DNA of 64,000 nucleotides from Isosphaeraceae bacterium (GTDB lineage Bacteria > Planctomycetota > Planctomycetia > Isosphaerales > Isosphaeraceae). Of this stretch, positions 679-47,753 are shown one piece after another. The number at the start of each line of letters is the position of its first letter. Positions within the stretch are counted from its first letter, which is position 1. The notes beneath the pieces are model-generated. The model searched no databases, was not told the origin of the DNA, and saw nothing but the letters and a program-made list of their open reading frames with translations. The stretch lies in assembly GCA_965279195.1 (NCBI GenBank), contig CBDIHP010000042.1:172317-236316 (forward strand). Reading direction: 5' to 3'. Made by a program: the position numbers and the translations under genes.

Positions 679-1709
679 TCAGGTCGCCTTTCTGGATGGG
701 TCGTCATACCAGCGGACCGATCTCTCGATGCTCTCCGCGTATCCGTAGGCCGGCGTCCAGCCGAGTTTCGTCTCCGCCTTCTCCGTCGAGTACGACAGGA
801 ACCGGCCCATCAGCCAGGTGGCGTAGCGGGTGATCAGGGGCGGCCTCGGCTGGCGAGTGAGCCGAGCGGCGGCCTCGATGAGCACGCTCGCGCCGAAGAC
901 CAGCCTGTAGGGGAGTCTCTTTTTGATCGCCGGTGCGCCGGTGGCGGCGATCCAGAGGTTGAGGTAGTCCTGCTGGGTGATGAACCCTTGATGGGTGATG
1001 TTGTACGCCTCGCCCCGGGACCCTCGTGCCCCGCCGCAAGGATGGCCGCGTCGGCGACGTTGGGGGCGTAGATCGCGCTGATGGGGTTGGTCGCCGGGCC
1101 GATCCAGGGGACGGTCCCGGCGCGGAGTTTCGCGATCAGCCGCGCCATCGTGATCCGGTCGCGTTCGCCGTAGAGCCAGCTCGGGCGGATGATCGTGAGC
1201 GGCAGGCCGCGCGTCTCGGCCAGGTCCCAGAGGAGCCGCTCGGATTCGACCTTGCTGATCGTGTAGTAGTCCCAGAACCGCCAGAGGTTCTGGCCGAGCG
1301 GGGCCGTCTCGTCGATCGGCGGGCCGCCCTCCTTCGGGTGGCCGTAGGCGCTCGTGGAGCTGATCTGGACGAACCGCTTCGCTCCGCCGGCGAGGGCGGC
1401 CTCGGCGATGTTCCGGGTGGCGTCGAGGCAGCCGACCTGGAACTCGCCCCAGGTCCCCCAGTCGCCCACCTTGGCGGCGGAGTGGTAGACGAAATCGGCC
1501 CCCTCGGCGGCCCCGCGGCAGGCGGCGGGATCGCTCAGGTCGCCACGGAAGACCTCGACGCCGATCGCGTCGAGGAAGGTCGTCGGGGTGCCGGGCCGGA
1601 CGAGGGCCCGGACGCGATCGCCCCGGGCACGGAGCTTCTCGGCGATGTGGCTGCCCAGCAATCCGGTCGCGCCGGTGACGAGCGAGAGGCCGGGCGGATT
1701 CGCGGTCAT
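679..1709 (-). CDS. NAD-dependent epimerase/dehydratase (SDR family, extended). The reading frame is interrupted by an apparent frameshift near 1020-1035, so this may be a pseudogene or a sequencing error.
   Basis: The N-terminal part (frame of ORF 834..1709) reads MTANPPGLSLVTGATGLLGSHIAEKLRARGDRVRALVRP... with the GxxGxxG Rossmann motif and a YxxxK-like segment (YYTISK). The C-terminal part continues in the frame of ORF 679..1995 (...RGEAYNITHQGFITQQDYLNLW...WYDDPSRKAT). The two frames meet around GGGGCACGAGGGTCCCGGGGCGAGG, a G/C homopolymer context. Confidence 0.6.
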
Positions 1710-1979
1710 GGGATTCGAGGCTCTCGATCAAACATGAGTCGGGGGAAGGAGATCGGTCCGGCCCGGTGCAAGTGTTGCCCGCGATTTGGCGGGTGTCTTG
1801 AAAAATTGTCAAGGAAGGTCGTCGGGGTGTGGGTCCCGTTGCAAGGGAGCGGTCCGTGCGATGCGCGGGCGGCTCGGCGGAGGGTCGTCGGGAACCGGCC
1901 CGATCGCCCGGTCCCCGAACGGTCAACGCGACTCCCTCGGTTCCCAACGGTCGCCGGCCCCCAACCCGACGAGACCACC

Positions 1980-4046
1980 ATGGCGGAAGAAACACTCGAT
2001 CCCGGTCTGCTCGAGCAGACGAAGAATCAGATCCGTAAGCTGGTGGCCGAGATCGCCGAGCTGGCCGAGTCGGACATCCAGCCGGCGGACTTCTACGTCG
2101 AGTTCCTGAACCGCTCGGTCGCGGCCGTGGCGGCGTCGGGCGGCGCGCTCTGGCTCATGGACGGTCGGGGCGGGCTCAAGCTCCAGCATCACCTGGAGTT
2201 CCAGCTCACCGGCCTGATGAACGGCCAGATCCGCACCGCGCCCCACGACGCCCTGCTGGGCTGCATGATCCAGGCCTCGCAGGCGACGATCATCCCGCCG
2301 GGCGCCACGGTCGAGGGGGTCCCCAACGCCGGCAACCCGACCCCGTTCACGCTCATCATCGCCCCCCTGACCGTCGACAAGCAAGTCGTCGGCCTGGTCG
2401 AGATCCTGATGGATCCGAACCGCCGGGCGGCCACGCAGAAGAGCACGCTCCGGTTCGTGAGCGACCTCTGCGACCTCGCCGGTTCGTACCTCAAGAACCG
2501 CCAGATGCGGCAGATGATGTCGCAGCAGCGGCTCTGGAACCAGCTCGAAGGGTTCACGCACTCGATCCACGGCTCCTTGCACCTCAAGGACACCTGCTTC
2601 GCGGTCGTCAACGACGGCAAGCGCCTGGTCGCCTGCGATCGGTTCAGCGTCGCCTTGAAGATCGGCGGCCGGACGATGGTCGAGGCCGTCAGCGGCCAGG
2701 AAGTCGTCGAGCAGCGGGCGAACCTGATCCGCGAGCTGACCAAGCTCTCCAAGGCGGTCATCCGCTCGGGCGAGGACCTGGTCTACACCGGCAACACCGA
2801 GGGCTTCGCCCCCGACATCCGCGACTCCCTCGAAGCGTACGTCGACGAGTCGGGCTCCAAGGCCGTCATCATGACGATCTTGCACAAGCCCGAGCCCGAT
2901 CAGAGCAAGGAGAAGGTGCCGTTCGGCGTGGTCATCGCCGAGCAGATCGGCGACGAACTCGCCCCGACCGACGCCCATGCCCGCTGCGAGGTCGTCGCGA
3001 GGCACGCCTCGACCGCCCTCTGGAACGCCTCCGAGCACGACAAGACGTTCCTGCCGATCCTCAAGATGATCGGCTCCCCCTGGCGGTTCTTCCGGGGCCG
3101 GACCCTGGCGAAGATCCTCGCCGTGGTCGCCCTGCTCGTCGGCGTGATCCTGATCCTCACCTTCGTGCCCTGGGAACTCCGGATCGAAGGCAGGGGCTCG
3201 CTGCTGCCCGAGCAGCGCCGGATGACCTACGCCCCGCTCGCGGGCAAGGTCATCGAGGTGCCCGTCGATCACGGCGACATCGTCCAGGCGGGCCAGGTCC
3301 TCGCGGTGATCAAGAGCGAGGAGCTGGAGAAGGAATACCTCCGGCTCACCGAGGCCCGCAACGAGGCGAACAGCAAGAAGACCTACCTCCACATCCAGGC
3401 CGAGGCGGCCCGCAAGCGCTCCAGCGAGGAGTACAACACGATCTCCGGCCAGGAGCGCGAGGCCGACATCCAGGAGAAGGGGGCGATCGAGCAGCTCAAG
3501 ATCATCGACGAGCAGCTCAAGCAGCTCGAGATCCGCGCCCCACACAAGGGCAAGATCACGACCTGGGAGCCCAGGAAGAACCTGATCGGCCGCCCGGTGG
3601 AGATCGGCCAGGAGCTGCTCCAGATCGCCGAACTCGAAGGCGAGTGGGTGATGGAGGTCGACGTCCCCGACGACGACATGGGCCCGGTCCTCGAAGCCCG
3701 CCGCAGGCTGGACGAGGACATCAAGGCCGGCAAGAAGCCGCCCGGCTCGGCCCTGAGCGCCTACTTCGTCACGGCCACCGACCCCGAGCACCGCTACACG
3801 GGCTATGTCCGCCGGATCTCCTCGAAGGCCGAGACCGTCGAGGGCAAGCACGTGGTGAAGGTGACGGTCGGGTTCTCGGAGGACATCCGCAAGGACTTCA
3901 TGACCCGGAATCAGGCCCTCCGCCCGGGTGCGGGCGTCTCGGCCCGGATCGACTGCGGCCAGGCCCGGCTCGCCTACGTCCTCTTCCGCGACGTGATCCA
4001 CGTCTTCTACGAGAGCGTCCTCTTCCGCTGGCCGTTCCTCCGTTGA
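1980..4046 (+). CDS. Membrane fusion protein (HlyD family) with N-terminal cytoplasmic tandem GAF-like domains, a single TM helix and a periplasmic biotin-lipoyl-like/coiled-coil/beta-barrel adaptor domain.
   Basis: The ATG at 1980 is in frame with ORF 1026..4046; the upstream part of that ORF is antisense to the epimerase gene and I treat it as non-coding. The protein is MAEETLDPGLLEQTKNQIRKLVAEIAELAE...; two GAF-like blocks lie before residue ~380. The TM helix is ILAVVALLVGVILILTFV. The lipoyl-like hairpin is LAGKVIEVPVDHGDIVQAGQVLAVIKSEEL, followed by a long coiled coil (EKEYLRLTEARNEA...QLKQLEIRAPHKGKI), typical of HlyD/EmrA adaptors. Confidence 0.75.
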   Translation: MAEETLDPGLLEQTKNQIRKLVAEIAELAESDIQPADFYVEFLNRSVAAVAASGGALWLMDGRGGLKLQHHLEFQLTGLMNGQIRTAPHDALLGCMIQASQATIIPPGATVEGVPNAGNPTPFTLIIAPLTVDKQVVGLVEILMDPNRRAATQKSTLRFVSDLCDLAGSYLKNRQMRQMMSQQRLWNQLEGFTHSIHGSLHLKDTCFAVVNDGKRLVACDRFSVALKIGGRTMVEAVSGQEVVEQRANLIRELTKLSKAVIRSGEDLVYTGNTEGFAPDIRDSLEAYVDESGSKAVIMTILHKPEPDQSKEKVPFGVVIAEQIGDELAPTDAHARCEVVARHASTALWNASEHDKTFLPILKMIGSPWRFFRGRTLAKILAVVALLVGVILILTFVPWELRIEGRGSLLPEQRRMTYAPLAGKVIEVPVDHGDIVQAGQVLAVIKSEELEKEYLRLTEARNEANSKKTYLHIQAEAARKRSSEEYNTISGQEREADIQEKGAIEQLKIIDEQLKQLEIRAPHKGKITTWEPRKNLIGRPVEIGQELLQIAELEGEWVMEVDVPDDDMGPVLEARRRLDEDIKAGKKPPGSALSAYFVTATDPEHRYTGYVRRISSKAETVEGKHVVKVTVGFSEDIRKDFMTRNQALRPGAGVSARIDCGQARLAYVLFRDVIHVFYESVLFRWPFLR

Positions 4047-4180: not shown

Positions 4181-5194
4181 ATGAGCACGTCCTTCTCCAA
4201 GAAAACCGGCGCGATCGCCCTGGGCCTCTCCGCCATGCTGGGCGCGGCCACGCTCGCGCAAGACCCGGCCGGCCGCCCGGCTGCCCCCGCCCGCGCCGCC
4301 AACGATCAGAACATCCTGACGGTCGACGACGGCAAGGTGGACTGGATCTACAAGTCCGACGTCTCCGCCCTCCGCGAGGGCGTGCTCGACAAGATGGAGA
4401 TCACGATCGGCAAGGAGGTCCGACGGGGCGGGTCGATCGGCCAGTTGCACAAGACGCTGGCCGAGCTGGCCGTCGCCAAGGCGAAGGTCGCGGCCGACGG
4501 CAAGGCGGCCAAGGCCAAGGCCGAGGCCCAGCAGGAGCTGGCGTTCGCCGTCGTCGCCCGCAACGAACGACTCAGGAAGAAGGATCCCAACCTCGTCTCC
4601 GCCGAGGAGATGAACAAGGCTGAGGCCGAGTTGAAGGTTGCCGTGGCCCTGATCATTGAGGCCCAGGAGAACCAGGCCCTCGCCCGCGCGGAGCTGGCCA
4701 TCGCCCAGCAGTCGCTCGACGAGCACTTCATCAAGGCCCCGTTCGACGGCGTGGTGATCGAGGAACTCAAGCGGCCGGGCGAGAGCGTCCGAGCCAATGA
4801 GCCGGTCGTCCGCGTGGGGAACCTGGACAAGCTCCGCGTCTTCGCCTTCATCCCGCTCGATTACGTCAGCCGGATCGGCGAGGAGACGACCGTCGAGTTC
4901 CAGCCCCGCGTGACCGGCGTTCGCGGCGGGACGATGGAGATCGAGCAGAAGCGGTTCGTGGGCAAGATCACGTTCGTGGACCCGCAGATCCAGCCGATCA
5001 GCGAGACGGCCATCCGCATCTACGCCGACTTCGAGAACCCGACCAAGGAATTGAAGCCGGGCATGCAGGGCTCGCTGACGATCCGGCTGAACCCGGCGAA
5101 GCCGGCCGCCGCGGGCCTGGTCCAGCCGCAGCCCGCCCCGGGCGTCGGCCCCGCCGCCGCCGCCTCGGCCGAGCTGCCGCCGCTGCCCCGCTGA
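4181..5194 (+). CDS. HlyD/efflux-adaptor family periplasmic protein (membrane fusion protein paralog) with a signal peptide.
   Basis: The ATG at 4181 is in frame with ORF 3644..5194. MSTSFSKKTGAIALGLSAMLGAATLAQDPA is a signal peptide. The lipoyl-like motif FIKAPFDGVVIEELKRPGESVRANEPVVRVGNLDKLRVFAFIP and the coiled coil AELKVAVALIIEAQENQALARAELAIAQQSL are characteristic of membrane fusion proteins. Confidence 0.7.
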   Translation: MSTSFSKKTGAIALGLSAMLGAATLAQDPAGRPAAPARAANDQNILTVDDGKVDWIYKSDVSALREGVLDKMEITIGKEVRRGGSIGQLHKTLAELAVAKAKVAADGKAAKAKAEAQQELAFAVVARNERLRKKDPNLVSAEEMNKAEAELKVAVALIIEAQENQALARAELAIAQQSLDEHFIKAPFDGVVIEELKRPGESVRANEPVVRVGNLDKLRVFAFIPLDYVSRIGEETTVEFQPRVTGVRGGTMEIEQKRFVGKITFVDPQIQPISETAIRIYADFENPTKELKPGMQGSLTIRLNPAKPAAAGLVQPQPAPGVGPAAAASAELPPLPR

Positions 5195-5301
5195 GAAGCT
5201 CGCCGCAGCCCGCCGTCTTGGCCCTTGCCGTCTAGCTGGAATCGACTGAACGACGCCCCGTCCACGCACCCTACCGGGACGCAAGCCAGGAGCGACTCCG
5301 C

Positions 5302-7497
5302 ATGAGCGCCGCCCCGACGATGGCCCCCTCGGCGCCGGCCGGACAGGCCGCCGAGCACCTCTGCGTGCGGCTGCGGCCGGACCTGATCGTCCAGCCGCAG
5401 TTCTACGAGGGGATGACCCACTACGTCATCAAGGACCCGATCGCGCTCAAGTACTTCCGCTTCAAGGTGGAAGAGTACTTCCTGCTCCAGCAGTTCGACG
5501 GCAAGAACAACCTCCAGGACGTCAAGCGGGCCTTCGAGAAGAAGTACCGCCCGCAGACCATCTCGGTCGACGACCTCATCCGCTTCGCCGCCCAGCTCCA
5601 CGAGGCGGGCATCGCCCTGGTCGACACCCCCGACCAGGGGCAGGCGCTCATCCGGCGCCGCAAGAAGAACCAGTGGAAGAAGGTCTGGCAGTTCTTCGCC
5701 AACATCCTGTACATCAAGATCCCGATCATCGATCCGGAACGCTTGCTGAGCTGGATGTACCCCTACTTCCGCTGGATCTACTCCTCCTGGTTCATGACCT
5801 TCAGCGTCGGGCTCATGGTCTCGGCCCTGATGCTGGTCATCAGCCAGTGGGCGACCTTCAGCAGCCGATTGCCCGACTTCCAGAGCTTCTTCAACTGGCA
5901 CACCATCTTCTACTTCTGGTGTAGCCTGGCGGTCGTGAAGGTGATCCACGAGTTCGGGCACGGGCTCACCGCCAAGCACTTCGGCGGCGAGGTCCACGAG
6001 ATGGGGGCGCTGCTGCTCGTCCTCACGCCCGCGCTCTATTGCGACGTCACCGACAGCTGGCTCCTGCCCAACAAATGGAAACGCATCTGGATCTCGGCGG
6101 CCGGCATCTATGTCGAATGCTTGCTGGCGTCGATCGCGACCTTCGTCTGGTGGAACACCGAGCAAGGGCTGCTCAATAGCTTGTGCCTGGCGACCATGTT
6201 CATCTGCTCGGTGAACACGATCCTCTTCAACGCAAACCCCCTGCTCCGCTACGACGGCTATTACGTCATGTCGGACTTCCTGGAGGTTCCGAACCTCCGG
6301 ATCAAGAGCACCCAGTTCTTCACCTACCTGTTCCAGGAGAAGGTGCTCGGGCTGGAGTTGCCGGTCCAGAGCTACATGCCCCGCTCGCGCCGGTTGCTGT
6401 TCGTGACGTACGCCGTCGCCAGCTACCTTTACCGCTGGATCGTGTCCTTCAGCATCATCTGGTTCCTTTATCAGTTCCTCAAGCCGTACAAGCTCGGGTC
6501 GCTGAGCGCGATCCTGGCGGTCGGCTCGCTCGTGCCGCTGATCGTGATGCCCGTCTATCAGATGATCAAGTTCGTCCGCACTCCTGGGAGGATGCGCAAA
6601 GTGAAGAAGCTTCGCACGGCCGCCTTCTTTGCGGTCTTGATCACCGCCGCGACGGCCATCCTGCTGATCCCGACCCCGCTCCGCGTGCAGGGGACGCTAG
6701 TGCTCACGGCGGAGAGGCCCGCCACCGTCTACGCCGAGGTCCCGGGCCTCCTGGAGACCATGGACGTCCGCGACGGCGACGTCGTCAAGGAAGGCCAGAT
6801 CCTCGCGACCCTGAGCAATCCCGAGAAGATCCGCGAGCGGATCCAGCGCACCGACGAGCAGGCGGCGAACTTCGCCAAGGCCAGCTACTTCGCGCAGAAT
6901 TCCGACCTCAACAGCCGCGCCCAGTACAAGGTCCACCTGAAGATCCAGGAGGAGCTTGAAGAGGTCATCAAGAAGGTCGTCGAGCAGATCGGCAAGCTGA
7001 CGCTGGTCGCCCCGCGCGACGGCGTGGTGATGGGGGTCCCCCAGCGCGAGACGCTGGGTCAGCACCTCAAGCCGGGCAAGGTCTTCTGCGAGGTCGCCGA
7101 CCCGACCAGGCTCGAAGCCCACATGATCCTCGACCAGTCGGACATCGACCTCGTCCGCTCGAAGAAGGACCAGCGGGCGACGGCCTGGATCAAGGTCTAC
7201 GGCACCTCCGAGACGACTTGGAAGAGCTACGTCTCCGAGATCGCGCTCCGCAACCGCGAGGAGATCCCGCCCGAGCTGTCGCACATGGCCGGCGGCGAGA
7301 TCGCGACCAAGCAGGACCAGAAGACCGGCCAGGTCAAGCCGCTGACCCCGATGTACGAGGTCATCATCCCTGTGGACAACTCCGAGCTGCGGCTCCAGCC
7401 GAGTCTGCGCGGGTTCGCCAAGATCGACTGCGGTCACTGCACCCTCGCCTGGTGGCTCTGGCGGCTCGTGGCCAAGACCTTCCACTTCTCGCTCTGA
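5302..7497 (+). CDS. Peptidase M50 (site-2 protease-like intramembrane zinc metalloprotease) fused to a C-terminal HlyD/membrane-fusion-protein-like periplasmic domain.
   Basis: The HExxH zinc motif HEFGHGL sits in a TM segment, followed by the M50 signature NANPLLRYDGYYV (N-x2-P-x4-DG). Multiple TM helices are present. After a further TM helix (AAFFAVLITAATAILLIP) come a lipoyl-like hairpin TAERPATVYAEVPGLLETMDVRDGDVVKEGQILATLSNPE, a coiled coil and LVAPRDGVVMGVP, as in HlyD adaptors. An AGGAG-like RBS lies about 9 nt upstream of the ATG at 5302. Confidence 0.8.
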   Translation: MSAAPTMAPSAPAGQAAEHLCVRLRPDLIVQPQFYEGMTHYVIKDPIALKYFRFKVEEYFLLQQFDGKNNLQDVKRAFEKKYRPQTISVDDLIRFAAQLHEAGIALVDTPDQGQALIRRRKKNQWKKVWQFFANILYIKIPIIDPERLLSWMYPYFRWIYSSWFMTFSVGLMVSALMLVISQWATFSSRLPDFQSFFNWHTIFYFWCSLAVVKVIHEFGHGLTAKHFGGEVHEMGALLLVLTPALYCDVTDSWLLPNKWKRIWISAAGIYVECLLASIATFVWWNTEQGLLNSLCLATMFICSVNTILFNANPLLRYDGYYVMSDFLEVPNLRIKSTQFFTYLFQEKVLGLELPVQSYMPRSRRLLFVTYAVASYLYRWIVSFSIIWFLYQFLKPYKLGSLSAILAVGSLVPLIVMPVYQMIKFVRTPGRMRKVKKLRTAAFFAVLITAATAILLIPTPLRVQGTLVLTAERPATVYAEVPGLLETMDVRDGDVVKEGQILATLSNPEKIRERIQRTDEQAANFAKASYFAQNSDLNSRAQYKVHLKIQEELEEVIKKVVEQIGKLTLVAPRDGVVMGVPQRETLGQHLKPGKVFCEVADPTRLEAHMILDQSDIDLVRSKKDQRATAWIKVYGTSETTWKSYVSEIALRNREEIPPELSHMAGGEIATKQDQKTGQVKPLTPMYEVIIPVDNSELRLQPSLRGFAKIDCGHCTLAWWLWRLVAKTFHFSL

Positions 7498-7529
7498 CCC
7501 GTCCGAGCTTCCTCGAACCTGGAAATCGC

Positions 7530-7575
7530 GACCGGCCGGCCTCGGGGCAACCCAGGGCCGGCCGGTTTCGTTTGG
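7530..7575 (+). terminator. Rho-independent terminator-like hairpin downstream of the M50-HlyD gene.
   Basis: ACCGGCCGGCC-tcggggcaacccag-GGCCGGCCGGT followed by TTCGTTT. Confidence 0.5.
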
Positions 7576-8208
7576 AGGGCGCCCGGGCTCTGCCTCGCCG
7601 GTTCATCTGATCCGCCAGCCCCGCGGTGCGCGAGCCTCCACCCATGATGCGGGAGCGAGAGCCGAAGGGACGCCCGACCGGATCGGAGGCGCTGGGCGAG
7701 CAACTCCCGATGCCGCCCTTGCCCTCGCCCCGCTGACCGACCGAACCAGATCTCCCGATCCGTCGACACGGGACGAATGACGTCGGACCGGGAGATCCGG
7801 TTTCGCGGCCTGTCGCGTCATCCGGTGGAGCGGCATCGGGAGATCCCCGCCCAGCGCACGCGACCGGATCTCGGCGTTTGGCAGGCCATTCGGGAGGTCG
7901 GCATCGGGAGAGGCGTCCCTGCGGTGTCGTCAAGGTGCCCGCGGGTTTCCGTCCTCGGAAACCCGGTCCAGCTGCGTCGCGGAAGAACCGGCCTGGGTGG
8001 ATCTCCCGGAATTTCGAGGCCGAATCCCTCGGGCAGCTCTGGGGCATTGGGCCGGAAACCGGCAGCTTCGCACCCGCACTACGAAGTGGGCTTCGAAAGT
8101 AAACCGGCCGCGACGGCCCTCGAAAGGACCGCCGCGGCCGGCAGGCTAGGAGACTCGGGACGGGGGCGGCCGGTTCGGGGCCGCCCAGGGTTCGCTCGAC
8201 GGGGAGAC

Positions 8209-11200
8209 TCAGCCGTTGCTGGTCTTCTTGGCCGAATTCTGGCTCGCCAGCGACTTCAGGGAGTCCACGATGGACTGCGCGGTGTTGCCGTCGCCGGTCG
8301 TCGTCGTGCTCGCCGTGGTCGTGGTCGTCGGCGTGGTGGTCGTCGGGGTGACGATCACCGGGGTGGTCTTCTTGGCGACCGTGGTCTTCTTCGCGGTCTT
8401 CGTCGCCTTGACCGGGGCGCTGAAGAGCGAGTAGACCGGGCCGTTGGTCGTGTTGGGCTGGAGGCCCTTGTTCACGCCGAAGGAGGCCGGCGTCCGCTTG
8501 GCGTAACCCTGGACCTTGCTCTTCGGCACGAACATGTAGGTCGGCTTCAGATACTTGAGGTCGTTGAAGTTACGCTTGGTGTCGGGTGCCAGGAGGTACC
8601 CGTTCGCGCTGGCCCGCTGGCGGTCGACCACGACGTACTGGTCGGGTTGCGGGAGCAGCTTGGTGGAGAGCATCTTCAGGGAGTCGATCGAGACCGCCCC
8701 GTTGAGGTCGCCGTCGGCCGCGTAGTCGAAGTAGTTGAACCGGCGCTGGAGGGCGTCGGGCTGCTCGGGCGTGTCGCCGGTCAGGCCGGTCGAGGTGAAC
8801 CCGTTCTGGTCGTTGGTCGCCGCCCGGGCGGTGCCGCCCAGGAGCCTCGCCATCGCACCGTCCTCGGGCAGGCCGAGGCGGGCCGAGTCGTCCACGAAGG
8901 TCTGGATCTCCTGCGCGGTGATCAGGCCGTTGTGGTTCGTGTCGATGATGTCGAAGGCGTTGTGGGCGAACAGGTACTGCAGGGCGACGGTGCCCTCGAT
9001 CGACGCGACGGCGTTGCCGACGTCGACCCGGGCGTAGCTGCGGAACTGGGTGCTGTCCCCCTTGAGCCGGAACGGCCCGGACTGGCTCTGGCCGTCGTTG
9101 ACGTCGGTCGCGGCGACCGCGGTGTACGCCAGGATCCCGTTGATGCCGTCCGGGGTGTTGTACGGCGTCAGGTTGGCGAAGGCGTTGGTGCCGAAGTTCA
9201 GCGTCTTGACGCCGACCGGCTGGGTCAGGTACGCGTCGGCCGTGCTCGCCGTGGTCAGCTGGTTGGTCCAGTATTGCAGGGCGGACGACACGACGGCGTA
9301 GGAGCCGGTGACGATGCCGGCCGAGAGCGAGGTACCGCCCGCGGTGTAGGTCATCGTGAGGCTGGCGTCGCCGACGAATCGGCGTCGGAAGGTCGGCACG
9401 TCGAGGGCCGGGGCCGCGAAGTCGGTCGTGACCGAGCGGTTGGCCGCGCCCAGGACGCGGTCGCTGTAGAAGACGCCGGCCCCGGTGTTGGCGCTCGCAC
9501 CGCCGTTATTGCCGTTGCCACCGCCGTTGCCGCCGCCGGTGGTGGTCCCGCCGCCTTCGGCCGCCGTGAGGGTGCCGAGGGAGTTGGGCTGGACCGAGGC
9601 GTTGGTGGTGCCGGTGTTGCCCGTGGTCGTGGTGGTGCCGCCCGGCGAGCTGGTGCCGCCGAAGACGAGGACCGGGCCCTGGACCCGCGGGATGAGCGTG
9701 TTCGCCGGGTCGGTCGGGATCGAATCCGGCTGCCCGAGGTACGGGAACGGATAGACGCCGGTGACCGAGATCACCTCGTTGAGGATCGCCGGCAGCGACA
9801 TGCCGTTGACGTCGCCGACGTTGGCGCTCTGGTTGCTGTTGGTGAAGCCGGTGTTGCTCGTCCCGGTGCCACCGCCGTTGCCGCCGTTGCCGCCGTTGCC
9901 GCCGCCGCCGGTGTTGAGCGGGGCGCCGAACTGGCCGGCCGCGGCGATCGGGGCGATGCCCAGGTCGCGGAACTTCTTGAACTGGTTCTTGAAGGCGATC
10001 ACGATCTGCGGGTAGCGGCGGAACGCGGTCCCTTCGGAGTCGAAGGTCTCGCTGGTGCCGAACCCGATCGTGGCGGCGATGACGCGGTCGGTCTGGCCCG
10101 GGCGGACCGGGTCGGCGACATACGGATGCGCGGCGGTGTAGGCGAAGCCGTTGTAGACGGCGTTGGTGCTGGTCAGGGTGTTGGTGACGATCGTCGTCGT
10201 GCCGCCGCCGTTCCCGTTCCCGCCGCCGCCGCCGGTCGTGCCGCCAGTGTTGCCCGCGTTGAACGGGTTGAAGGCCGAGACCGGATTCAGGGTGGCCTGC
10301 GGGACGAACTGCGAGACGACGCCGGCGACCAGCGTGCCGTGGCCATCGGCCGTGGTCGGGATCGACGCGCCGCCGGTGGTGCCGTTGTTGCCGTTGTTGC
10401 CGTTGCCGGTCGCGGCCGTGGTGGCGAGGCCGGCGGCGTAGTCGTCGTTGCCTGTGCCGTTGGTCAGGACGTTCTTGCCCGGCGCCACGCGGCCGCGGAA
10501 GCCGGGGGACGTGGCGTCCACGCCGGTGTCGAGGATCGTGACGGCGCTGTTCTGGCCCTCATACGGGACGCCGAGGGTCCGCAGGTCGTTGAGGCCGACG
10601 AGCGAGCCGCTGGTCGAGCCGGCGAGGCTGGCCTGCGTCTTGAACTGCCAGATGCCGTCGTTGTCGGCGGCGTACAGGGTCGTGCCGTCGGCCGAGAAGG
10701 TGATGCTCAGGCTCGACGACGTGAACGAGCTCGAGTCGAACGCGTTCGAGGTGTTGAATCCGGTCGCGAACGGGGTCACGACGCCGGTCGGGCTGATCCG
10801 GACGATACGCCCGCCGAGCGACCCGCTCGAGGCCGAGATGATCTGGTTGCCGGCCGAGTCGAGGGTCGCGCCCGCACCGCCGGGGCCCTGGACCGGGATG
10901 ACCGTCACCTGACCGGTGGTGGTGCCCGGGGTCGGGACGGTGGTCGCCAGGCCGCTCGCCAGGTCGCTCACGAACAGGCTGCCGACATACTGCACCGCAC
11001 CATACGTGAAGTTGGTGGTGGTGCCGGTGGTGCCGGTGGTCGTCGTGCTGGCCGAGGTCACGACCACGCCGTTCGAGAAGTAGCCGTACTTGTCGAACGC
11101 GGTGTCCTGGAAGCGGCGCAGGTTGGTGTCGGCGACCGTGAAGCCATCGACGCTGCCGCCGGTCCCGAGCGTGAAACCCGTCGGCTGGGTGCCGGTGCTG

Positions 11201-12297
11201 GCGACCGTCGAGGTGGTGCCGGTGCCGATCAGGAGGCCGCCGCCGAGGCCCTGGACCCCGGAGAACCCGGCCGTCTGCGGGAACGGGTTGCCGGAATCGG
11301 GCGGGAAGGCCGGGACGCCGAAGTCGGTGAAGGCCGAGTAGACCTGCGACACGTAGTCGGTGTTCGTGCTGGTCGAGGCCAGGCCGACCTGGGGTCCGAG
11401 CGTCAGCGCGGTGTTCTTGACGCCCGGGGGGAGCGTCGGCGTGCTGATGTTCTGGCCGGGCTTGTACTGGTTGGCGTCGAAGAACAGGGCGGCGAACTGG
11501 GTGTTCGACGTCGTGTTCTGGACGGTGCTCGAACCCGTGCCCGTGCCCGAGATCAGCCCGCGGAGGAACGACTGCTGCTCGGCCGGCGGCACGAGGATCG
11601 CCGACGGATTGATCGAAAGCCGGGTCCCCTTCAGGCTGCTGTCGCTGTAGGTGACGAACGCCCCCAGGAAGGAGCCGTCGGGGCCGATCCGGTAGATCGC
11701 GTTCTTGGTCGGGTCGGTCGAGTCGACCGTCGAGACGAACATCGACGACCGGCCGTCGAAGTAACCTTCGGGGTCGAACGTGACGTCATACCAGTTCACG
11801 AGCCCCGTGCCGGTGCCGGCCGAGTTGGCGGCGCTGGTGGCGCTGGGGTTCAGCTGGGGGATGACGGTGTTGAGGTCGAAGAACACTGACGCCTTGCCGG
11901 TGGCCGGGTCCACGCGGTAGATCACGCCGGGGCGGTTGATGGCCCCGGTGTTGGAGCCCGCACCGCGCGAGACGGCGTAGATGCCCTTGCCGAAGTCGCC
12001 GCCGGGGCCGGCCTCGATCCGGACGATGTCGCCGCCGAACTGGTTGATCGGCGTGAGCTGAGACACCGAGGTGAACGGGGCGGCCGACGCGAACGTCGAG
12101 GTCCCCGTCGTCTGCGTCGTGATGGTGACGTTGCCCACGGAGGGCGTCCCCGCGTTCGCCGTGAATGTGGCGGACGTCGGGAAGGTCGCCAGGACCGGGG
12201 TCAGCACCTCACGGATTTCCAGGTGCTGGACTTCCAGCCGGACTTCGCGCTTCTGCCGCGAGGGGCCTCGCGCCTTGGGTCGGGATGGGTGAGACAT
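8209..12297 (-). CDS. Subtilisin-like serine peptidase (S8 family), 1362 aa. It has long Gly/Thr/Asn-rich low-complexity inserts, C-terminal dockerin/EF-hand-like Ca-binding repeats and a Lys/Thr-rich tail.
   Basis: Catalytic triad motifs: ILDTGVD (Asp), HGTLVAGVVS (His), GGTSLSAGIVTG (Ser). Dockerin-like repeats: DTNHNGLITAQEIQTFVDD and DYAADGDLNGAVSIDSLKML. C-terminal tail: KTAKKTTVAKKTTPVIVTPTTTTPTTTTTASTTTTG. Confidence 0.8.
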   Translation of the reverse strand: MSHPSRPKARGPSRQKREVRLEVQHLEIREVLTPVLATFPTSATFTANAGTPSVGNVTITTQTTGTSTFASAAPFTSVSQLTPINQFGGDIVRIEAGPGGDFGKGIYAVSRGAGSNTGAINRPGVIYRVDPATGKASVFFDLNTVIPQLNPSATSAANSAGTGTGLVNWYDVTFDPEGYFDGRSSMFVSTVDSTDPTKNAIYRIGPDGSFLGAFVTYSDSSLKGTRLSINPSAILVPPAEQQSFLRGLISGTGTGSSTVQNTTSNTQFAALFFDANQYKPGQNISTPTLPPGVKNTALTLGPQVGLASTSTNTDYVSQVYSAFTDFGVPAFPPDSGNPFPQTAGFSGVQGLGGGLLIGTGTTSTVASTGTQPTGFTLGTGGSVDGFTVADTNLRRFQDTAFDKYGYFSNGVVVTSASTTTTGTTGTTTNFTYGAVQYVGSLFVSDLASGLATTVPTPGTTTGQVTVIPVQGPGGAGATLDSAGNQIISASSGSLGGRIVRISPTGVVTPFATGFNTSNAFDSSSFTSSSLSITFSADGTTLYAADNDGIWQFKTQASLAGSTSGSLVGLNDLRTLGVPYEGQNSAVTILDTGVDATSPGFRGRVAPGKNVLTNGTGNDDYAAGLATTAATGNGNNGNNGTTGGASIPTTADGHGTLVAGVVSQFVPQATLNPVSAFNPFNAGNTGGTTGGGGGNGNGGGTTTIVTNTLTSTNAVYNGFAYTAAHPYVADPVRPGQTDRVIAATIGFGTSETFDSEGTAFRRYPQIVIAFKNQFKKFRDLGIAPIAAAGQFGAPLNTGGGGNGGNGGNGGGTGTSNTGFTNSNQSANVGDVNGMSLPAILNEVISVTGVYPFPYLGQPDSIPTDPANTLIPRVQGPVLVFGGTSSPGGTTTTTGNTGTTNASVQPNSLGTLTAAEGGGTTTGGGNGGGNGNNGGASANTGAGVFYSDRVLGAANRSVTTDFAAPALDVPTFRRRFVGDASLTMTYTAGGTSLSAGIVTGSYAVVSSALQYWTNQLTTASTADAYLTQPVGVKTLNFGTNAFANLTPYNTPDGINGILAYTAVAATDVNDGQSQSGPFRLKGDSTQFRSYARVDVGNAVASIEGTVALQYLFAHNAFDIIDTNHNGLITAQEIQTFVDDSARLGLPEDGAMARLLGGTARAATNDQNGFTSTGLTGDTPEQPDALQRRFNYFDYAADGDLNGAVSIDSLKMLSTKLLPQPDQYVVVDRQRASANGYLLAPDTKRNFNDLKYLKPTYMFVPKSKVQGYAKRTPASFGVNKGLQPNTTNGPVYSLFSAPVKATKTAKKTTVAKKTTPVIVTPTTTTPTTTTTASTTTTGDGNTAQSIVDSLKSLASQNSAKKTSNG

Positions 12298-30986: not shown

Positions 30987-31060
30987 TTCGTGGTAGCTCA
31001 ATCGGATAGAGCATCGGATGTAGAGTCCGAGAGTAGCAGGTTCGAATCCTGCCCACGTTA
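30987..31060 (+). ncRNA. tRNA-like sequence, 74 nt, with non-canonical features (a possible pseudo-tRNA or degenerate tRNA).
   Basis: It folds to tRNA geometry: 8-9 TA, D-arm GCTC-aatcggata-GAGC, anticodon stem TCGGA/TCCGA, canonical T-arm GCAGG-TTCGAAT-CCTGC, acceptor 3' strand CCACGTT. Position 33 is G, not U (loop TGTAGAG). Acceptor pairs 1-72 and 2-71 are T-T mismatches. Confidence 0.4.
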
Positions 31061-31387
31061 CACGCGTCGGCTGTCAACCGACACGGGGGTGTCTCACACA
31101 CACTCCACCATCTTCAGGCCCGAGAGGGATGTCCCGCGAATCGCCACACCGTGCCAGGAATCTCGATTCCCGGCCCGGGAAACCAGACAACGAGGCCCTG
31201 TAGTCGGTCGCGAACGGTCAACAACGCCCGGGAATCCCGAGGCGGACGCCGATGCCATCCCCCCTGGCCCGGCCGACGCCTCCCGGTGAACCGGGCCGGT
31301 TCGTCCGCTCAACCCGGCTCCGCGCTCGAAAACTGGGGCGGCACGCGGTGACGTCCCTCGAAGGTCTTTCTCTTTTGATGTGTCCTC

Positions 31388-37749: not shown

Positions 37750-40700
37750 ATGTCCACCTCCCCCAGCGACCGGATCCCCATCGACGACCTCGCCGAGGCC
37801 TTCCTCGCCAGGCGACGCGCGGGCGAGCCGGTCACGCCCGAGGAGTTCGCCGCCTCGAACCCCGACCTCGCCGAGGAGATCCTCGCCCTCTTCCCCGCGC
37901 TCGTGATGATGGAGGAACTCGGCAACGACTCGGGCGACCGCACGGCGACGGTCGCGGGGTCGTCGGGGAGCCTGCCGGCGGGCTTGCCGGTTCAGCGGCT
38001 GGGGGAATACCGCCTGCTGCGCGAGGTCGGACGCGGCGGGATGGGGATCGTCTACGAGGCCGAGCAGGAGAGCCTCGGGCGGCGCGTGGCGCTCAAGGTC
38101 TTGCCCGCCGGCGCCCTGGCCGACCCCAAGCAGGTCCGGCGGTTCACCCGCGAGGCGCGATCCGCCGCCAAGCTGCACCACACCAACATTGTCCCCGTGT
38201 TCGGCGTCGGCGAGTGCGACGGCACCCATTTTTATGTGATGCAATTCATCCAGGGCCAGGGGCTCGATTCGGTCCTCGACGAGCTGAAGCGGCTCCGCGG
38301 CCTGCGGGGCAACGGCGCCCGGACCCAGACCCGGCGCGAGGCCGGCGAGATCGCGCTCTCGCTCGCGTCCGGGCGGTTCGTCGATGCCGAGGCCCCCACC
38401 GTCCCCTCGGGCGGGCTCTCGGCGATCCGGTCGGGCAACATGTCGGGCTCGGCCACGGACGTCTCGACGCTCACCGAGACCGACCGCCGTTTCGCCCAGG
38501 GGGTCGCGAAGCTCGGCGTCCAGGTGGCCGACGCCCTGGCCCACGCCCACGGGCAGGGGATCCTGCACCGCGATATCAAGCCCTCGAACCTCCTGCTCGA
38601 TCGCGAGGGGAACGTCTGGGTCGCCGACTTCGGCCTGGCGAAGGCCGTCGGGGCGGACGACCTGACGCACACCGGCGACATCATCGGCACCGTCCGCTAC
38701 ATGGCCCCCGAGCGGTTCCGGGGCGAGGCCGATGCCCGTTCGGATGTCTATGCCCTCGGGCTCACTCTCTATGAGCTCCTGGCCCTCCGCCCGGCGTTCG
38801 ACGAGGGCGACCGCGCCAGCCTGATCCGTCAGGTCACCCAGGAGACGCCGCCGAGGCTCCGACGCATCAATCGCGCGGTGCCGCTCGACCTCGAGACCAT
38901 CATCCACAAGGCGATGGCCCGCGAGCCCGAGGGGCGTTACCGCTCGTCGCAGGACCTCGCCGAGGACCTCAAGCGGTTCCTCGACGGGCGGCCGATTCTT
39001 GCGCGCCGGGTGTCGACCGGGGAGCGGCTCTACCGCTGGAGTCGTCGCAACCCCGCGTTGGCCGCCGCGATGGGGGCGGTCGCCCTGCTCCTGGTCGCCA
39101 CGACCATCGCCGCCGTGATCGGCATGGGATTTTACCGGCACCAGGCCGAGATGGCGGACCTGGCCCGCCGCGAGTCGGACCTGCTGCGCGGCGAGGCCGA
39201 GCGTTCCCGCCGCGAGGCCGATACCCGCCGCGTCGAAGCCGAGGCCGAGCGGCAGCGGGCCGAGTCGAACCTGGCGGAGTCTCGCGAGAACCTCGCCCTG
39301 GCCCGCAAGGCGGTGGACGACTCGTTCACGAAGATCAGCGAGAGCAGCCTGCTCAACGTCCCTGGCCTGCGGCCGCTCCGGAAGGAACTCCTCGAATCGT
39401 CGCTGGGGTTCTATGAAGAGTTCTCCAAGCGTGCTCGGGGGACCGACCCGACCGTCGTCGCCGACCTCGCCGGCGCGCGGTACCGCGTCGGACGAATCCA
39501 GTCGGAGTTGGGGGTCCTGATCGAAGCCAGGGCCAATTATCAGGAATCTCTGGCCCTTTTCGAGCGGGCCCTCGGGGCGAAGGCCGCCGCGCCGTCAGCT
39601 CTCCGCGAACTCGGCGAGGTCTGGCACCGGCTCGGGGACCTGGACGCGTTGAATGGCCGCACCGGCCCGGCCCTCCCGGCGTACCTTCACGCCGTCTCGA
39701 TCCGCGAACGCCTGGCCCGGTCCGGCCCCCGATCGTCGCGGGATCGCCTCGACCTGTCCAGGTCGCTCAACGGGGTCGCGATCTCGACGGCCGACCGCGA
39801 ACAGCAACGCGATGCCTATCGGAGGTCTCTCGCTCTCCGCCTGGAGACGGCGAAAGATCTCACCGACGACCCCGATCTGCTCCACGGCCTGAGCGAGTCG
39901 TTCCTCAATTGCAGTGTGATCATCCGGGACGCAGGCTATGGCGAGGAGGCGCTGGAACTCGCCAGGCGGGGTCTGGACTACGGCCACGCCGGCCTCGCCC
40001 GACGGCCGCACGACATCGAATTCACGATGGACCTCGGGGGGCTCTACGGCCAGATCGCCGGCTACTGCTGGAACCTCGGGCGGGAGCGCGAGGCGCTCGA
40101 GCTCTCGGCGGAAGGGATCGGATTCGAGGTCGACGCGGTGGCGAAGAATCCGGAAGTCCCCGGATTCCGGTCGTACCTGGCGGATGTCCTGATCAAACGC
40201 CTGAATTTCCTCCGACCCCGGAGGCAGGCGGCGCCCGAGGCGGATCCGACCCGCCGGGCGGATCTCCTCGCGATCTTCGAGACGATCGTCTGGCTCCATG
40301 AGTCCGCGCCCCAGCCCACGAAGGACGGCCTGGCGCTGGCGGCGGCGGCGCACCTCCACCGGGCGGTCCTGCTCGCCGGAGTCGGGGCGCCTGCCTCGCC
40401 CGATGCCTGGTCGACGGAAGCGAAGGAGGAGAGGGTTCTCGGCTTCGTGGACCTGGATCGGGCCAAATCCAGGGGCATGTCGGAGGCCGAATTCGCCAGG
40501 GCGTATCCCGAACTCCGGGACCTCCTGGAGGGCACCCGACCCGAGAAAAAACGGTCGGGCGGTCGCGTGCCCGGGCCACCCACGTCGTGGCCGGTGCCCA
40601 GGAAAAGCGGCACCTCGCCCCTGGCGATTCCCGGCCGATTCGAGGAGGACCGCTCCTGCGCCGAACTCGTGATCGCGATCCTGCACCGCCTCGGCCGGGA

Positions 40701-47644: not shown

Positions 47645-47716
<72 letters not shown>

Positions 47717-47753
47717 CTCGACAACTCCTGATTTCCCCAGTAGATACGAAAAG

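What the first reader, a model, noticed from the sequence alone, without database searches (positions are those of the whole stretch)
5302..7497. Site-2-protease (M50) to HlyD fusion protein
Within one ORF the sequence shows the M50 catalytic motifs (HEFGHGL in a TM helix; NANPLLRYDGYYV). After an additional TM helix comes a periplasmic lipoyl-like hairpin (TAERPATVYAEVPGLLETMDVRDGDVVKEGQILATL), a coiled coil and a beta-barrel-like LVAPRDGVVMGVP. This places an intramembrane protease at the base of an adaptor-type periplasmic stalk. That is an unusual architecture and may define a new S2P subfamily.
Basis: seen in the sequence. Interest (0 to 1): 0.7.

Follow-up and report, generated by a model that had tools for sequence, protein, structure and literature searches.

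The report
Protease-adaptor subunit of an uncharacterised secretion system
The gene is a real fusion of a peptide-binding domain, a membrane-embedded zinc protease and a periplasmic stalk; it belongs to a conserved, never-tested gene module that probably exports very large surface proteins carrying an N-terminal "LEPR" tag.

Summary
ORF 5302..7497 is an intact 731-aa gene. Its M50 motifs are invariant across relatives, and its C-terminal half folds like MexA, MacA and HlyD. It is not a frameshift artefact, because thousands of full-length relatives exist.

Residues about 22-107 form a PqqD/RRE-type peptide-binding domain.

The fusion is not new. Kamneva et al. (2015) described this module by comparative genomics: an M50/HlyD protein, an HlyD protein, a GAF/HlyD protein, and often a short second SecA and TolC. 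The window carries the first three genes, A, B and C. This order recurs in 53 of 57 planctomycete loci with enough upstream sequence.

The papers I could search do not name a substrate. In 13 of 14 proteobacterial loci a giant gene (2,100-16,200 aa) lies beside the system. All 10 readable N-termini of those giants carry a basic stretch followed by LE-x-R. Two flavours of this motif track two machinery subtypes. In the window, the only gene with the motif is the 1,362-aa ORF next to gene C.

Best reading: a type-I-like exporter without an ABC transporter, in which this protein recognises and probably cleaves an N-terminal leader. The function is inferred, not shown.

The parts
1980..4046 (+). 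Gene A, 688 aa. Cytoplasmic GAF-containing region, one TM helix, then a periplasmic HlyD-type adaptor domain. First gene of the conserved A-B-C operon.
   Evidence: Pfam: GAF_3/GAF, Biotin_lipoyl_2, HlyD_D23, HlyD_3. GC3 0.95. 73% identical to the Singulisphaera ortholog. Lies upstream of C on the same strand in 53 of 57 planctomycete loci. Homologous to the ~620-aa adaptors of proteobacterial systems.
4181..5194 (+). Gene B, about 337 aa (start codon approximate). Sec-type signal peptide (MSTSFSKKTGAIALGLSAMLGAATLAQ) followed by a periplasmic HlyD-type adaptor.
   Evidence: Pfam HlyD_D23 51.7 bits and HlyD_3 44.9 bits. GC3 0.95. The B family is present in 75 of 82 loci. Homologous to the ~285-aa adaptors of Thalassospira, Methylosinus, E. 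coli and Azospirillum.
5302..7497 (+). Gene C, the finding: 731 aa, RRE-M50-TM-adaptor fusion.
5365..5622 (+). Residues about 22-107 of C: cytoplasmic PqqD/RRE-like peptide-binding domain (three strands plus three helices).
5785..6579 (+). Residues 162-426 of C: M50 membrane core, six TM helices plus a re-entrant beta-hairpin at 233-248.
5947..5961 (+). HEFGH (H216-H220): two zinc ligands and the catalytic glutamate.
   Evidence: Invariant in 41 and 71 aligned relatives and in 10 proteobacterial and planctomycete orthologs.
6229..6258 (+). NANPLLRYDG (N310-G319): contains the third zinc ligand, D318.
   Evidence: N310, N312, P313, D318 and G319 are invariant. D is retained in all orthologs.
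6607..6663 (+). Residues 436-454: seventh TM helix, which carries the chain out to the periplasm.
   Evidence: Hydropathy 2.2. The preceding loop 417-438 has 8 K/R and 0 D/E. AF2 helix 436-454.
6670..7479 (+). Residues 457-726: periplasmic adaptor domain, made of a lipoyl/barrel-sandwich, an alpha-hairpin (507-531 and 536-564) and a beta-barrel.
7530..7574 (+). GC-rich hairpin followed by UUUCGUUU, 32 nt after the stop of C. Likely operon terminator.
   Evidence: MFE -52.2 kcal/mol, z = -3.16 against shuffles. No coding frame in 7498-8208.
8209..12297 (-). Gene D, 1,362 aa, convergent with C. Candidate substrate. Its N-terminus MSHPSRPKARGPSRQKREVRLEVQHLEIREVLTP has a basic stretch then LE..LE.R..L, and no Sec-type hydrophobic core.
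   Evidence: GC3 0.96. N-terminus. It is the only high-GC3 ORF in the 64 kb that matches the motif. Orthologs sit downstream of C in Isosphaeraceae loci L004, L005, L006 and L009. Only weak EF-hand hits, all below the Pfam cut-offs, and no PDB relative by sequence.
12196..12240 (-). Residues about 20-34 of D: the LEVQHLEIREVLTP motif, a putative N-terminal export/leader signal.
   Evidence: Analogous motifs occur at the N-termini of 10 of 10 giant proteins beside proteobacterial systems.
1710..1979 (.). Divergent intergenic region between the epimerase gene (minus strand) and gene A. Presumed operon promoter region.
   Evidence: No sigma-70 consensus match was found, so this is inferred from position only.

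Best explanation
Gene C is the inner-membrane core subunit of a conserved envelope-spanning export module that resembles type I secretion but has no ABC transporter.

The module:
- C, the RRE-M50-adaptor fusion.
- A, a GAF-TM-adaptor protein.
- B, a secreted adaptor protein.
- In many genomes also a short second SecA ATPase, a DUF3467 protein and a TolC-type outer-membrane channel.

Proposed mechanism:
1. The cytoplasmic PqqD/RRE domain of C binds the N-terminal leader of a cargo protein. The leader is a basic stretch followed by an LE-x-R-x-L-L or LE-x-R-x-x-F-D motif, the 'LEPR-XLL' signal.
2. The adjacent M50 active site, which opens to the cytoplasmic face of the membrane, cuts the leader off. 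This parallels the C39 peptidase domain of bacteriocin exporters.
3. The cargo passes through a conduit whose periplasmic wall is built from the adaptor domains of A, B and C.
4. Energy comes from the SecA paralog where one is present.

In the window, the likely cargo is the adjacent 1,362-aa protein D.

Shown: the domain architecture, the intact catalytic site, the topology prediction, the operon conservation and the genomic association with motif-bearing large proteins. Inferred: leader binding, cleavage, translocation and the energy source.
For: Architecture of C:
- Pfam and NCBIfam matches.
- AF2 model, mean pLDDT 79.9.
- Foldseek hits to MexA, AcrA and MacA at E about 1e-12.
- The N-domain profile finds PqqD and TfuB1 as the two best PDB sequences.
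- The catalytic motifs are invariant from Planctomycetota to E. coli.

Module conservation:
- A lies upstream of C in 53 of 57 planctomycete loci.
- The B family is in 75 of 82 loci.
- DUF3467 flanks the operon in 27 loci, and a short SecA lacking the C-terminal scaffold in 7.
- The same parts occur in proteobacterial loci, with pairwise homology to A, B and C.
- No ABC, RND or MFS transporter lies near the operon in the window.
- This matches the module described in PMC4452313.

Substrate link:
- 13 of 14 proteobacterial loci with upstream sequence have a gene of 2,100-16,239 aa beside the system.
- 10 of 10 readable giant N-termini carry the motif.
- Three of them pass the NCBIfam LEPR-8K cut-off, and a fourth is annotated LEPR-XLL by NCBI.
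- The motif flavour co-varies with the machinery subtype, 4 of 4 and 6 of 6 (note 7).
- In Planctomycetota, 6 of 8 motif-bearing large ORFs are the first neighbour of the module. The binomial P is 2.8e-4.
- D is the only motif gene in the window and is adjacent to C.
Against: - There are no experimental data for any member.
- The window has no short SecA, DUF3467 or TolC gene within 64 kb. The energy source and outer-membrane exit for this organism are therefore unknown.
- The planctomycete N-termini, D included, do not score with the NCBIfam LEPR-8K model. They were found with a loose regular expression. One D ortholog (L004) has a degenerate version of the motif.
- The background density of motif genes in planctomycete genomes could not be measured, so the adjacency statistic rests on an assumed 13 neighbouring genes.
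- The Phyllobacterium locus has no motif-bearing neighbour.
- Nothing shows that the leader is cleaved rather than merely bound.
- Nothing shows that an M50 domain can form or gate a protein-conducting channel.
Confidence: 0.6

Rival explanations
1. C matures and exports a small ribosomal peptide natural product (RiPP or bacteriocin). It would cut the leader from a short precursor, like EpeP/YydH or the daptide protease MpaP, and hand the product to an adaptor-lined exit.
For: The RRE plus M50 portion (residues 45-426) matches NCBIfam daptide_HExxH at E=1e-50 and YydH/LiaK at 1e-13. JGI names the family 'putative peptide zinc metalloprotease'. RRE domains are typical of RiPP pathways. EpeP is thought to both cleave and export its peptide (PMC10885120).
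Against: Both NCBIfam scores are far below their cut-offs (172.7 against 300, and 51.2 against 225). No precursor peptide, modifying enzyme or immunity gene is conserved beside the operon in 82 loci. The operon is present throughout Planctomycetota like a housekeeping function. The recurrent neighbours are giant proteins, a SecA paralog and TolC.
Confidence: 0.1
2. C is a signalling site-2 protease. It would carry out regulated intramembrane proteolysis of an anti-sigma factor or another membrane regulator, with the periplasmic adaptor-like domain and the GAF protein acting as sensors.
For: C has the M50 fold and motifs. An ECF sigma factor gene lies divergently upstream of the operon in Singulisphaera. 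Protein A has GAF domains, which suggest regulation.
Against: The sigma factor neighbour is absent from the window and is not conserved. C has no PDZ or CBS domain. No anti-sigma gene is nearby. This rival does not explain three adaptor-type proteins, TolC, the SecA paralog or the giant neighbours.
Confidence: 0.07
3. A, B and C are ordinary efflux adaptors, as the public annotation says. They would serve a small-molecule or metal pump encoded elsewhere, and the protease part would be an accessory.
For: NCBI names the protein 'HlyD family efflux transporter periplasmic adaptor subunit'. The best structural matches are the drug and metal efflux adaptors MexA, MacA, ZneB and CusB.
Against: No RND, ABC or MFS partner lies beside the operon in the window or in the other loci examined. 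The protease motifs are invariant over very long evolutionary distances, which implies selection on catalysis. The scores for the efflux-adaptor NCBIfam models are far below their cut-offs.
Confidence: 0.06
4. The module does not conduct cargo. It is an envelope quality-control or anchoring device: a periplasm-spanning scaffold whose protease clears or releases N-terminally tethered large surface proteins that are exported by Sec.
For: The link to large surface proteins is genomic only. The short SecA might act with SecYEG. M50 proteases are not known to form channels.
Against: The N-termini of the giant proteins and of D lack a Sec-type hydrophobic core. A TolC gene inside many clusters points to passage across the outer membrane.
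Confidence: 0.12

Closest known systems
The 'secondary SecA_DEAD' type-I-secretion-like module of Kamneva, Poudel & Ward 2015 (PLoS One, PMC4452313)
   Same: The same three protein families sit side by side: a Peptidase_M50/HlyD protein, an HlyD protein and a GAF/HlyD protein. They occur in Planctomycetes and Proteobacteria, without an ABC transporter and sometimes with an OEP/TolC gene. The window's genes A, B and C are orthologs of these families.
   Different: The window has no secondary SecA within 64 kb. The paper names no substrate and does not contain the terms PqqD, DUF3467 or giant.
Bacteriocin-type type I secretion (a peptidase-containing ABC transporter with a C39 domain, plus an HlyD adaptor, plus TolC)
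   Same: A leader-cleaving protease is physically coupled to an adaptor/TolC conduit, and the signal on the cargo is N-terminal. This is a likeness in how it works.
   Different: There is no ABC transporter and no C39 domain. The protease is an intramembrane zinc enzyme fused to the adaptor itself. There are three different adaptor-type proteins. The cargo is up to 16,000 aa rather than a peptide.
RiPP intramembrane M50 proteases (EpeP/YydH, daptide MpaP, TglG/TmoG)
   Same: They share the RRE-like N-domain plus M50 core. NCBIfam daptide_HExxH aligns to residues 45-426 at E=1e-50.
   Different: The scores are below the family cut-offs. Those enzymes lack the extra TM helix and the periplasmic adaptor domain, and they sit in biosynthetic clusters with precursor peptides.
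Signalling site-2 proteases (RseP, SpoIVFB, M. jannaschii S2P 3b4r)
   Different: C has no PDZ or CBS domain. It has an RRE domain and a periplasmic adaptor instead, and there is no evidence of a membrane-anchored regulator as substrate.
Periplasmic adaptor proteins (MexA, AcrA, MacA, HlyD, EmrA)
   Same: They share the lipoyl, alpha-hairpin and beta-barrel arrangement behind an N-terminal membrane anchor.
   Different: In C the anchor is a seven-helix protease rather than a single helix or a lipid, and no canonical pump partner is encoded nearby.

Membership tests
Peptidase family M50 (site-2 protease fold) | HExxH motif within a transmembrane helix | tested here: met
   HEFGH at 216-220 lies inside AF2 helix 199-226. 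It is invariant in 41 relatives.
Peptidase family M50 (site-2 protease fold) | Second motif NxxPxxxxDG, which supplies the third zinc ligand | tested here: met
   NANPLLRYDG at 310-319. N310, N312, P313, D318 and G319 are invariant.
Peptidase family M50 (site-2 protease fold) | Profile match above the curated threshold, and fold similarity to a solved S2P | tested here: met
RseP-type or SpoIVFB-type signalling S2P subfamilies | PDZ (RseP) or CBS (SpoIVFB) accessory domain | tested here: not met
   No PDZ or CBS hit at E<=1.
Periplasmic adaptor / membrane fusion protein (HlyD) family | Lipoyl/barrel-sandwich domain interrupted by an alpha-helical hairpin, followed by a beta-barrel | tested here: met
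Periplasmic adaptor / membrane fusion protein (HlyD) family | Partner inner-membrane transporter (ABC, RND or MFS) encoded with it | tested here: not met
   No such gene is in the window near the operon or in the conserved neighbourhood.
PqqD / RiPP recognition element (RRE) | Fold of about 85 aa with three strands and three helices, recognisable by profile | tested here: met
PqqD / RiPP recognition element (RRE) | Binds a leader peptide | not testable with these tools
   Needs binding assays or a complex prediction.
Daptide (NF041824) and YydH/LiaK (NF058609) RiPP M50 proteases | Score above the NCBIfam equivalog cut-off | tested here: not met
   172.7 bits against 300, and 51.2 bits against 225.
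Kamneva 2015 SecA_DEAD-associated type-I-like module | M50/HlyD, HlyD and GAF/HlyD proteins encoded side by side | tested here: met
   Genes A, B and C lie at 1980-7497. The arrangement is conserved in 53 of 57 loci. Compared with the paper's description.
Kamneva 2015 SecA_DEAD-associated type-I-like module | Secondary SecA_DEAD protein in the same neighbourhood | tested here: not met
   tblastn with two short SecA proteins finds nothing in the 64-kb window. One is present beside the operon in 7 other planctomycete loci and in 6 proteobacterial loci (Pseudosulfitobacter, Rhodobacteraceae M382, Rhizobium johnstonii, Methylosinus, Mesorhizobium, Ensifer). It may lie elsewhere in this genome.
LEPR-XLL domain proteins (NCBIfam NF012209), as the proposed cargo class | N-terminal 24-aa LEPR-XLL motif scoring above the cut-off of 17 bits | tested here: inconclusive
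   Above the cut-off for the giant neighbours in Pseudosulfitobacter (34), Cupriavidus (17.9) and Burkholderia (17.6). Below it for Azospirillum (13). No hit for E. coli or for the seven planctomycete N-termini submitted to the model. Gene D itself was not submitted and matches only my regular expression.

The most novel reading that the evidence does not exclude
The A-B-C module, with or without the short SecA, DUF3467 and TolC, is a distinct and widespread two-membrane secretion pathway. It would be dedicated to proteins carrying an N-terminal basic + LE-x-R ('LEPR-XLL') leader, including some of the largest bacterial proteins known (up to 16,239 aa).

In this reading, an RRE domain borrowed from peptide natural-product pathways recognises the leader. 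An intramembrane M50 protease removes it. A SecA paralog, not an ABC transporter, drives export from the N-terminus onward. It would be the main route for large surface proteins in Planctomycetota.
Probability: 0.4. Interest if true: 0.85.

Novelty: new member of a known kind. Interest (0 to 1): 0.6.

Why it matters
The fusion itself is ordinary within its phylum and was noted in 2015. The module it belongs to has never been tested, although it occurs across Planctomycetota and in many Proteobacteria.

If the substrate link found here holds, it explains three things:
- What the LEPR-XLL N-terminal motif is for.
- How giant adhesin-like proteins that lack Sec or C-terminal type-I signals leave the cell.
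- Why a second, truncated SecA exists in Gram-negative bacteria.

It would also show an RRE domain used outside natural-product biosynthesis, and an M50 protease working as the leader peptidase of a secretion machine.

A compact version sits on natural E. coli IncF plasmids, found in 24 of 5,426 complete genomes. It encodes a giant Ig-like protein, TolC and three adaptor-type genes. This makes the idea directly testable by genetics.

Tried and rejected
- **Hydropathy scan.** A Kyte-Doolittle scan called residues 231-255 a TM helix, which gave an even helix count and an impossible topology. The AF2 model shows that segment is the re-entrant beta-hairpin typical of S2P, leaving 7 helices.
- **Exact-sequence contig look-up.** The look-up for the window protein found nothing on record. 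I used the Singulisphaera ortholog instead.
- **Literature searches with no relevant result.**
  - M50 + HlyD + fusion: only false matches in DOIs and residue numbers.
  - 'Site-2 protease' + HlyD: 0 papers.
  - Daptide + M50: 0 papers.
  - DUF3467, LEPR-XLL and DUF4347: incidental mentions only.
  - The 2026 preprint on giant Chlorobium proteins invokes classical type I parts, not this module.
- **First motif scan of the window.** My first regular expression was too strict at the last position and missed gene D. D was found by reading its N-terminus and confirmed with a broader pattern.
- **NCBIfam LEPR-8K on planctomycete N-termini.** The model does not recognise them. The planctomycete link therefore rests on a loose motif plus adjacency.
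- **Family of gene D.** D gave no PDB sequence match and no Pfam family above its cut-off, only weak EF-hand hits. By eye it has subtilase-like strings (DTG, HGTLVAG, GGTS), but this is unverified and I do not rely on it.
- **AlphaFold database fold library.** It was not available.
- **Promoter scan upstream of gene A.** It found no sigma-70-like site. This is uninformative for a planctomycete.
- **Frameshift or missed-stop explanation.** Rejected on GC3 and on thousands of full-length relatives.
Full report
**1. The observation**

ORF 5302..7497 (+) is open from ATG to stop and encodes 731 aa. The window has about 68% GC, so long spurious ORFs are common. I therefore checked third-position GC. 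It is 0.95 in the reading frame of this ORF and of the two ORFs upstream. No frame stands out in 7498-8208.

Pfam gives Peptidase_M50 (35.1 bits, cut-off 27.2), HlyD_3 (45.9, cut-off 22.2) and HlyD_D23 (34.9, cut-off 30). Biotin_lipoyl_2 scores 25.9, just under its cut-off.

A missed stop or a frameshift is excluded. A search of 1.84 billion cluster representatives found 14,161 clusters at E<=1e-3 and 4,542 at E<=1e-30. Nearly all of the best 150 are 700-760 aa and align over the whole length. In an alignment of 41 relatives at 30-70% identity, H216, E217, H220, N310, N312, P313, D318 and G319 are invariant. The protease is therefore under selection as an enzyme.

**2. Anatomy of the protein**

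An AlphaFold2 model built from 71 sequences has a mean pLDDT of 79.9. It shows four parts:
- Residues 22-107: three strands followed by three helices.
- Residues 162-426: six TM helices, with HEFGH inside helix 199-226 and a beta-hairpin at 233-248.
- Residues 436-454: a seventh TM helix.
- Residues 457-726: a domain of lipoyl-like strands, an alpha-hairpin (507-531 and 536-564) and a beta-barrel.

Foldseek gives MexA, AcrA and MacA at E about 1e-12.

The window protein does not reach Pfam PqqD on its own. However, 19 of 41 relatives do, with a best E of 1.4e-7. A profile of the N-domain finds PqqD (E=9.6e-5) and TfuB1 (E=3.8e-4) as the two best of all PDB sequences.

Topology. With seven helices and the very basic loop 417-438 (8 K/R, no D/E), the RRE domain is cytoplasmic and the adaptor domain is periplasmic. 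My first hydropathy count was wrong because it scored the beta-hairpin as a helix.

**3. Surroundings in the window**

The two genes upstream, on the same strand, are also adaptor-type proteins.
- Gene A (1980..4046) has a cytoplasmic GAF region, one TM helix and an HlyD-type domain.
- Gene B (about 4181..5194) has a Sec signal peptide and an HlyD-type domain.

A strong hairpin followed by UUUCGUUU lies 32 nt after the stop of gene C (z = -3.16). No ABC, RND or MFS transporter and no TolC gene was found among the ORFs of the window that I scanned.

**4. Relatives elsewhere**

The closest proteins are from Isosphaeraceae (Singulisphaera, Tundrisphaera) at 72-77% identity. NCBI names them 'HlyD family efflux transporter periplasmic adaptor subunit'. 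JGI names them 'putative peptide zinc metalloprotease protein'.

A scan of one genome per species returned at least 599 loci. The best 80 are all Planctomycetota, from Isosphaeraceae, Gemmataceae, Pirellulales, Planctomycetales and Thermoguttaceae, apart from a few oddly labelled bins.
- A lies upstream of C on the same strand in 53 of 57 loci with enough sequence.
- The B family is present in 75 of 82 loci.

Clustering all ORFs of these loci showed two further recurrent neighbours:
- A DUF3467 protein of 110-130 aa, right after C or before A, in 27 loci.
- A short SecA paralog of 660-750 aa in 7 loci. It has the motor and preprotein-binding domains but lacks the C-terminal scaffold.

Neither is present in the window.

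**5. This module is already in the literature**

[quoted passage not shown] These proteins are encoded beside three protein families: a peptidase with HlyD domains and weak M50 similarity, an HlyD secretion protein, and a GAF/HlyD protein. An OEP (TolC) gene is sometimes present.

They proposed that SecA_DEAD supplies ATPase activity and that the membrane-embedded M50 protein might replace the pore of the missing ABC transporter. They left the biological role open. The terms PqqD, DUF3467, substrate (in the sense of cargo) and giant do not occur in that paper.

**6. What the cargo may be**

A tblastn of gene C against plasmid and chromid records found full-length relatives at 24-30% identity in Alpha-, Beta- and Gammaproteobacteria. 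I inspected 15 such loci. Homology of their parts to A, B and C was confirmed by BLASTP, and their catalytic motifs are intact. In 13 of the 14 loci with upstream sequence, a very large gene lies directly beside the system.

| Organism | Size of the neighbouring protein |
|---|---|
| E. coli | 4,459 aa |
| Pseudosulfitobacter | about 12,700 aa |
| Azospirillum | about 5,100 aa |
| Cupriavidus CH34 | 3,750 aa |
| Burkholderia | 3,523 aa |
| Methylosinus | 8,847 aa |
| Thalassospira | 4,033 aa |
| Mesorhizobium | 10,518 aa |
| Niveispirillum | 7,208 aa |
| Variovorax | 16,239 aa |
| Ensifer | at least 6,011 aa |
| Rhodobacteraceae M382 | at least 3,305 aa |
| Indioceanicola | at least 2,147 aa and about 2,700 aa |

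Sources.

All 10 readable N-termini have a basic stretch followed by LE-x-R within the first 20-60 residues.
- NCBI annotates the Thalassospira protein as 'LEPR-XLL domain-containing protein'.
- The NCBIfam LEPR-8K model passes its cut-off for Pseudosulfitobacter, Cupriavidus and Burkholderia.

The motif has two flavours, and they co-vary with the machinery.
- LEPRxLL(S/N)AD goes with clusters that contain DUF3467, often a short SecA, and a long A protein of about 620 aa (4 of 4).
- LExRxxFD(A/G)A goes with clusters of TolC, B, a short A of 446-484 aa and C, without DUF3467 or SecA (6 of 6) (note 7).

That co-variation is what one expects if the machinery reads the motif.

**7. Back to the window**

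The gene convergent with C, ORF 8209..12297 (-), is real (GC3 0.96). It encodes 1,362 aa beginning MSHPSRPKARGPSRQKREVRLEVQHLEIREVLTP, which is a basic stretch, then LE..LE.R..L, with no Sec-type hydrophobic core.

It is the only high-GC3 ORF in the 64 kb that matches the motif pattern. Its orthologs sit downstream of C in four other Isosphaeraceae loci.

Across the planctomycete loci plus the window, 8 large ORFs have the motif near their N-terminus. Six of them are the first neighbour of the module, including two directly after DUF3467. If motif genes fell at random among about 13 neighbouring genes, six or more of eight would be expected with P = 2.8e-4.

Caveats:
- The planctomycete motif was found with a loose pattern.
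- It is not recognised by the NCBIfam model.
- It is degenerate in one ortholog.
- I could not measure the genome-wide background.

**8. How it most likely works**

Shown: an RRE-type peptide-binding fold and an intact M50 site on the cytoplasmic side; an adaptor fold on the periplasmic side; two further adaptor proteins in the same operon; and recurrent linkage to TolC, a SecA paralog, DUF3467 and motif-bearing giant proteins.

Inferred:
- The RRE binds the N-terminal leader.
- The M50 site removes it, as the C39 domain does in bacteriocin exporters.
- The three adaptor domains line a periplasmic conduit to an outer-membrane channel.
- The SecA paralog, where present, supplies energy.
- DUF3467 may act as a chaperone.

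What forms the inner-membrane passage is unknown. I put 0.6 on this overall reading. The identity and architecture are near certain, and the mechanism is roughly even odds.

**9. Rivals**

- RiPP maturation and export. This is suggested by the sequence kinship to daptide and epipeptide proteases (PMC10885120). However, no precursor or tailoring genes are conserved nearby, and the scores are far below the family cut-offs.
- Signalling by regulated intramembrane proteolysis. This has only a non-conserved ECF sigma neighbour in Singulisphaera in its favour.
- The annotated efflux-adaptor role. This lacks a pump partner and does not explain the conserved catalytic site.
- A non-conducting quality-control or release device. 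This cannot be excluded with these data.

**10. Verdict**

The protein is a new member of a family already described by comparative genomics. I could not find any of these in the searchable literature. The natural E. coli plasmid version makes them directly testable.

Noticed in passing
window 706..1682 (minus strand): A NAD-dependent epimerase/dehydratase gene is split between two reading frames near 1023-1032. Residues 6-221 of the Singulisphaera ortholog align to 1682..1032, and residues 225-330 align to 1023..706. This is an apparent frameshift: a pseudogene or a sequencing error.
   Followed up: partly
window 7498..8208: About 710 bp between the convergent genes C and D has no coding frame by GC3. 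It is bounded by two strong hairpins, at 7530-7566 on the plus strand and 8142..8103 on the minus strand (18-bp stem). That is long for a spacer between convergent genes. No Rfam family matched.
   Followed up: partly
L092 22168-24084 (Methylosinus sp. C49 plasmid); L096 22132-24093 (Mesorhizobium ciceri plasmid): Two genes are annotated 'prepilin peptidase' and 'DEAD/DEAH box helicase'. The Methylosinus gene is a short SecA paralog: Pfam SecA_DEAD E=1e-103, and 46% identity to the planctomycete short SecA. The Mesorhizobium gene is inferred to be one from its size and position only; it was not scanned.
   Followed up: partly
L083 / L088 (E. coli plasmid NZ_CP081687) and 23 other E. coli genomes: A compact version of the system sits on IncF plasmids: a 4,459-aa Ig-like protein with N-terminal FALESRQLFDGAA, then TolC and three adaptor-type genes including M50-HlyD. 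It occurs in 24 of 5,426 complete E. coli genomes (21 places on plasmids, 4 on chromosomes) and is flanked by IS elements.
   Followed up: partly
L094, L092, L084, L096 compared with L083, L087, L091, L093, L098, L099: Two flavours of the N-terminal motif (LEPRxLLSAD and LExRxxFDAA) track two gene-cluster subtypes. One has DUF3467, sometimes a short SecA, and a long A protein. The other has TolC-B-short A-C. The match is 4 of 4 and 6 of 6.
   Followed up: yes
L035, L036, L049, L053, L056, L080 (Pirellulales-type loci), downstream of gene C: A MOSC-domain protein of about 300 aa is encoded downstream of gene C, mostly within a few hundred bp, in six loci. No obvious link to secretion.
   Followed up: no
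L010 15887-16180: A second, isolated match to the last 98 residues of gene C (56% identity) lies 5.7 kb downstream of the full gene. It may be a duplicated fragment.
   Followed up: no
window 37750..44010 (+): A 2,086-aa protein has an N-terminal Ser/Thr kinase domain followed by many TPR repeats. This is typical of planctomycete giant kinases and unrelated to the finding.
   Followed up: no
window 30987..31061 and 47645..47717 (+): Two tRNA genes: tRNA-Leu (anticodon tag) and tRNA-Gly (anticodon ccc). They were the only Rfam hits in the window.
   Followed up: no
L099 (Variovorax paradoxus VAI-C replicon CP063167) 19413-68132: The gene beside the system is 48.7 kb long and encodes a 'tandem-95 repeat protein' of 16,239 aa, among the largest bacterial ORFs. 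A type II secretion gene cluster lies directly downstream of the module.
   Followed up: no
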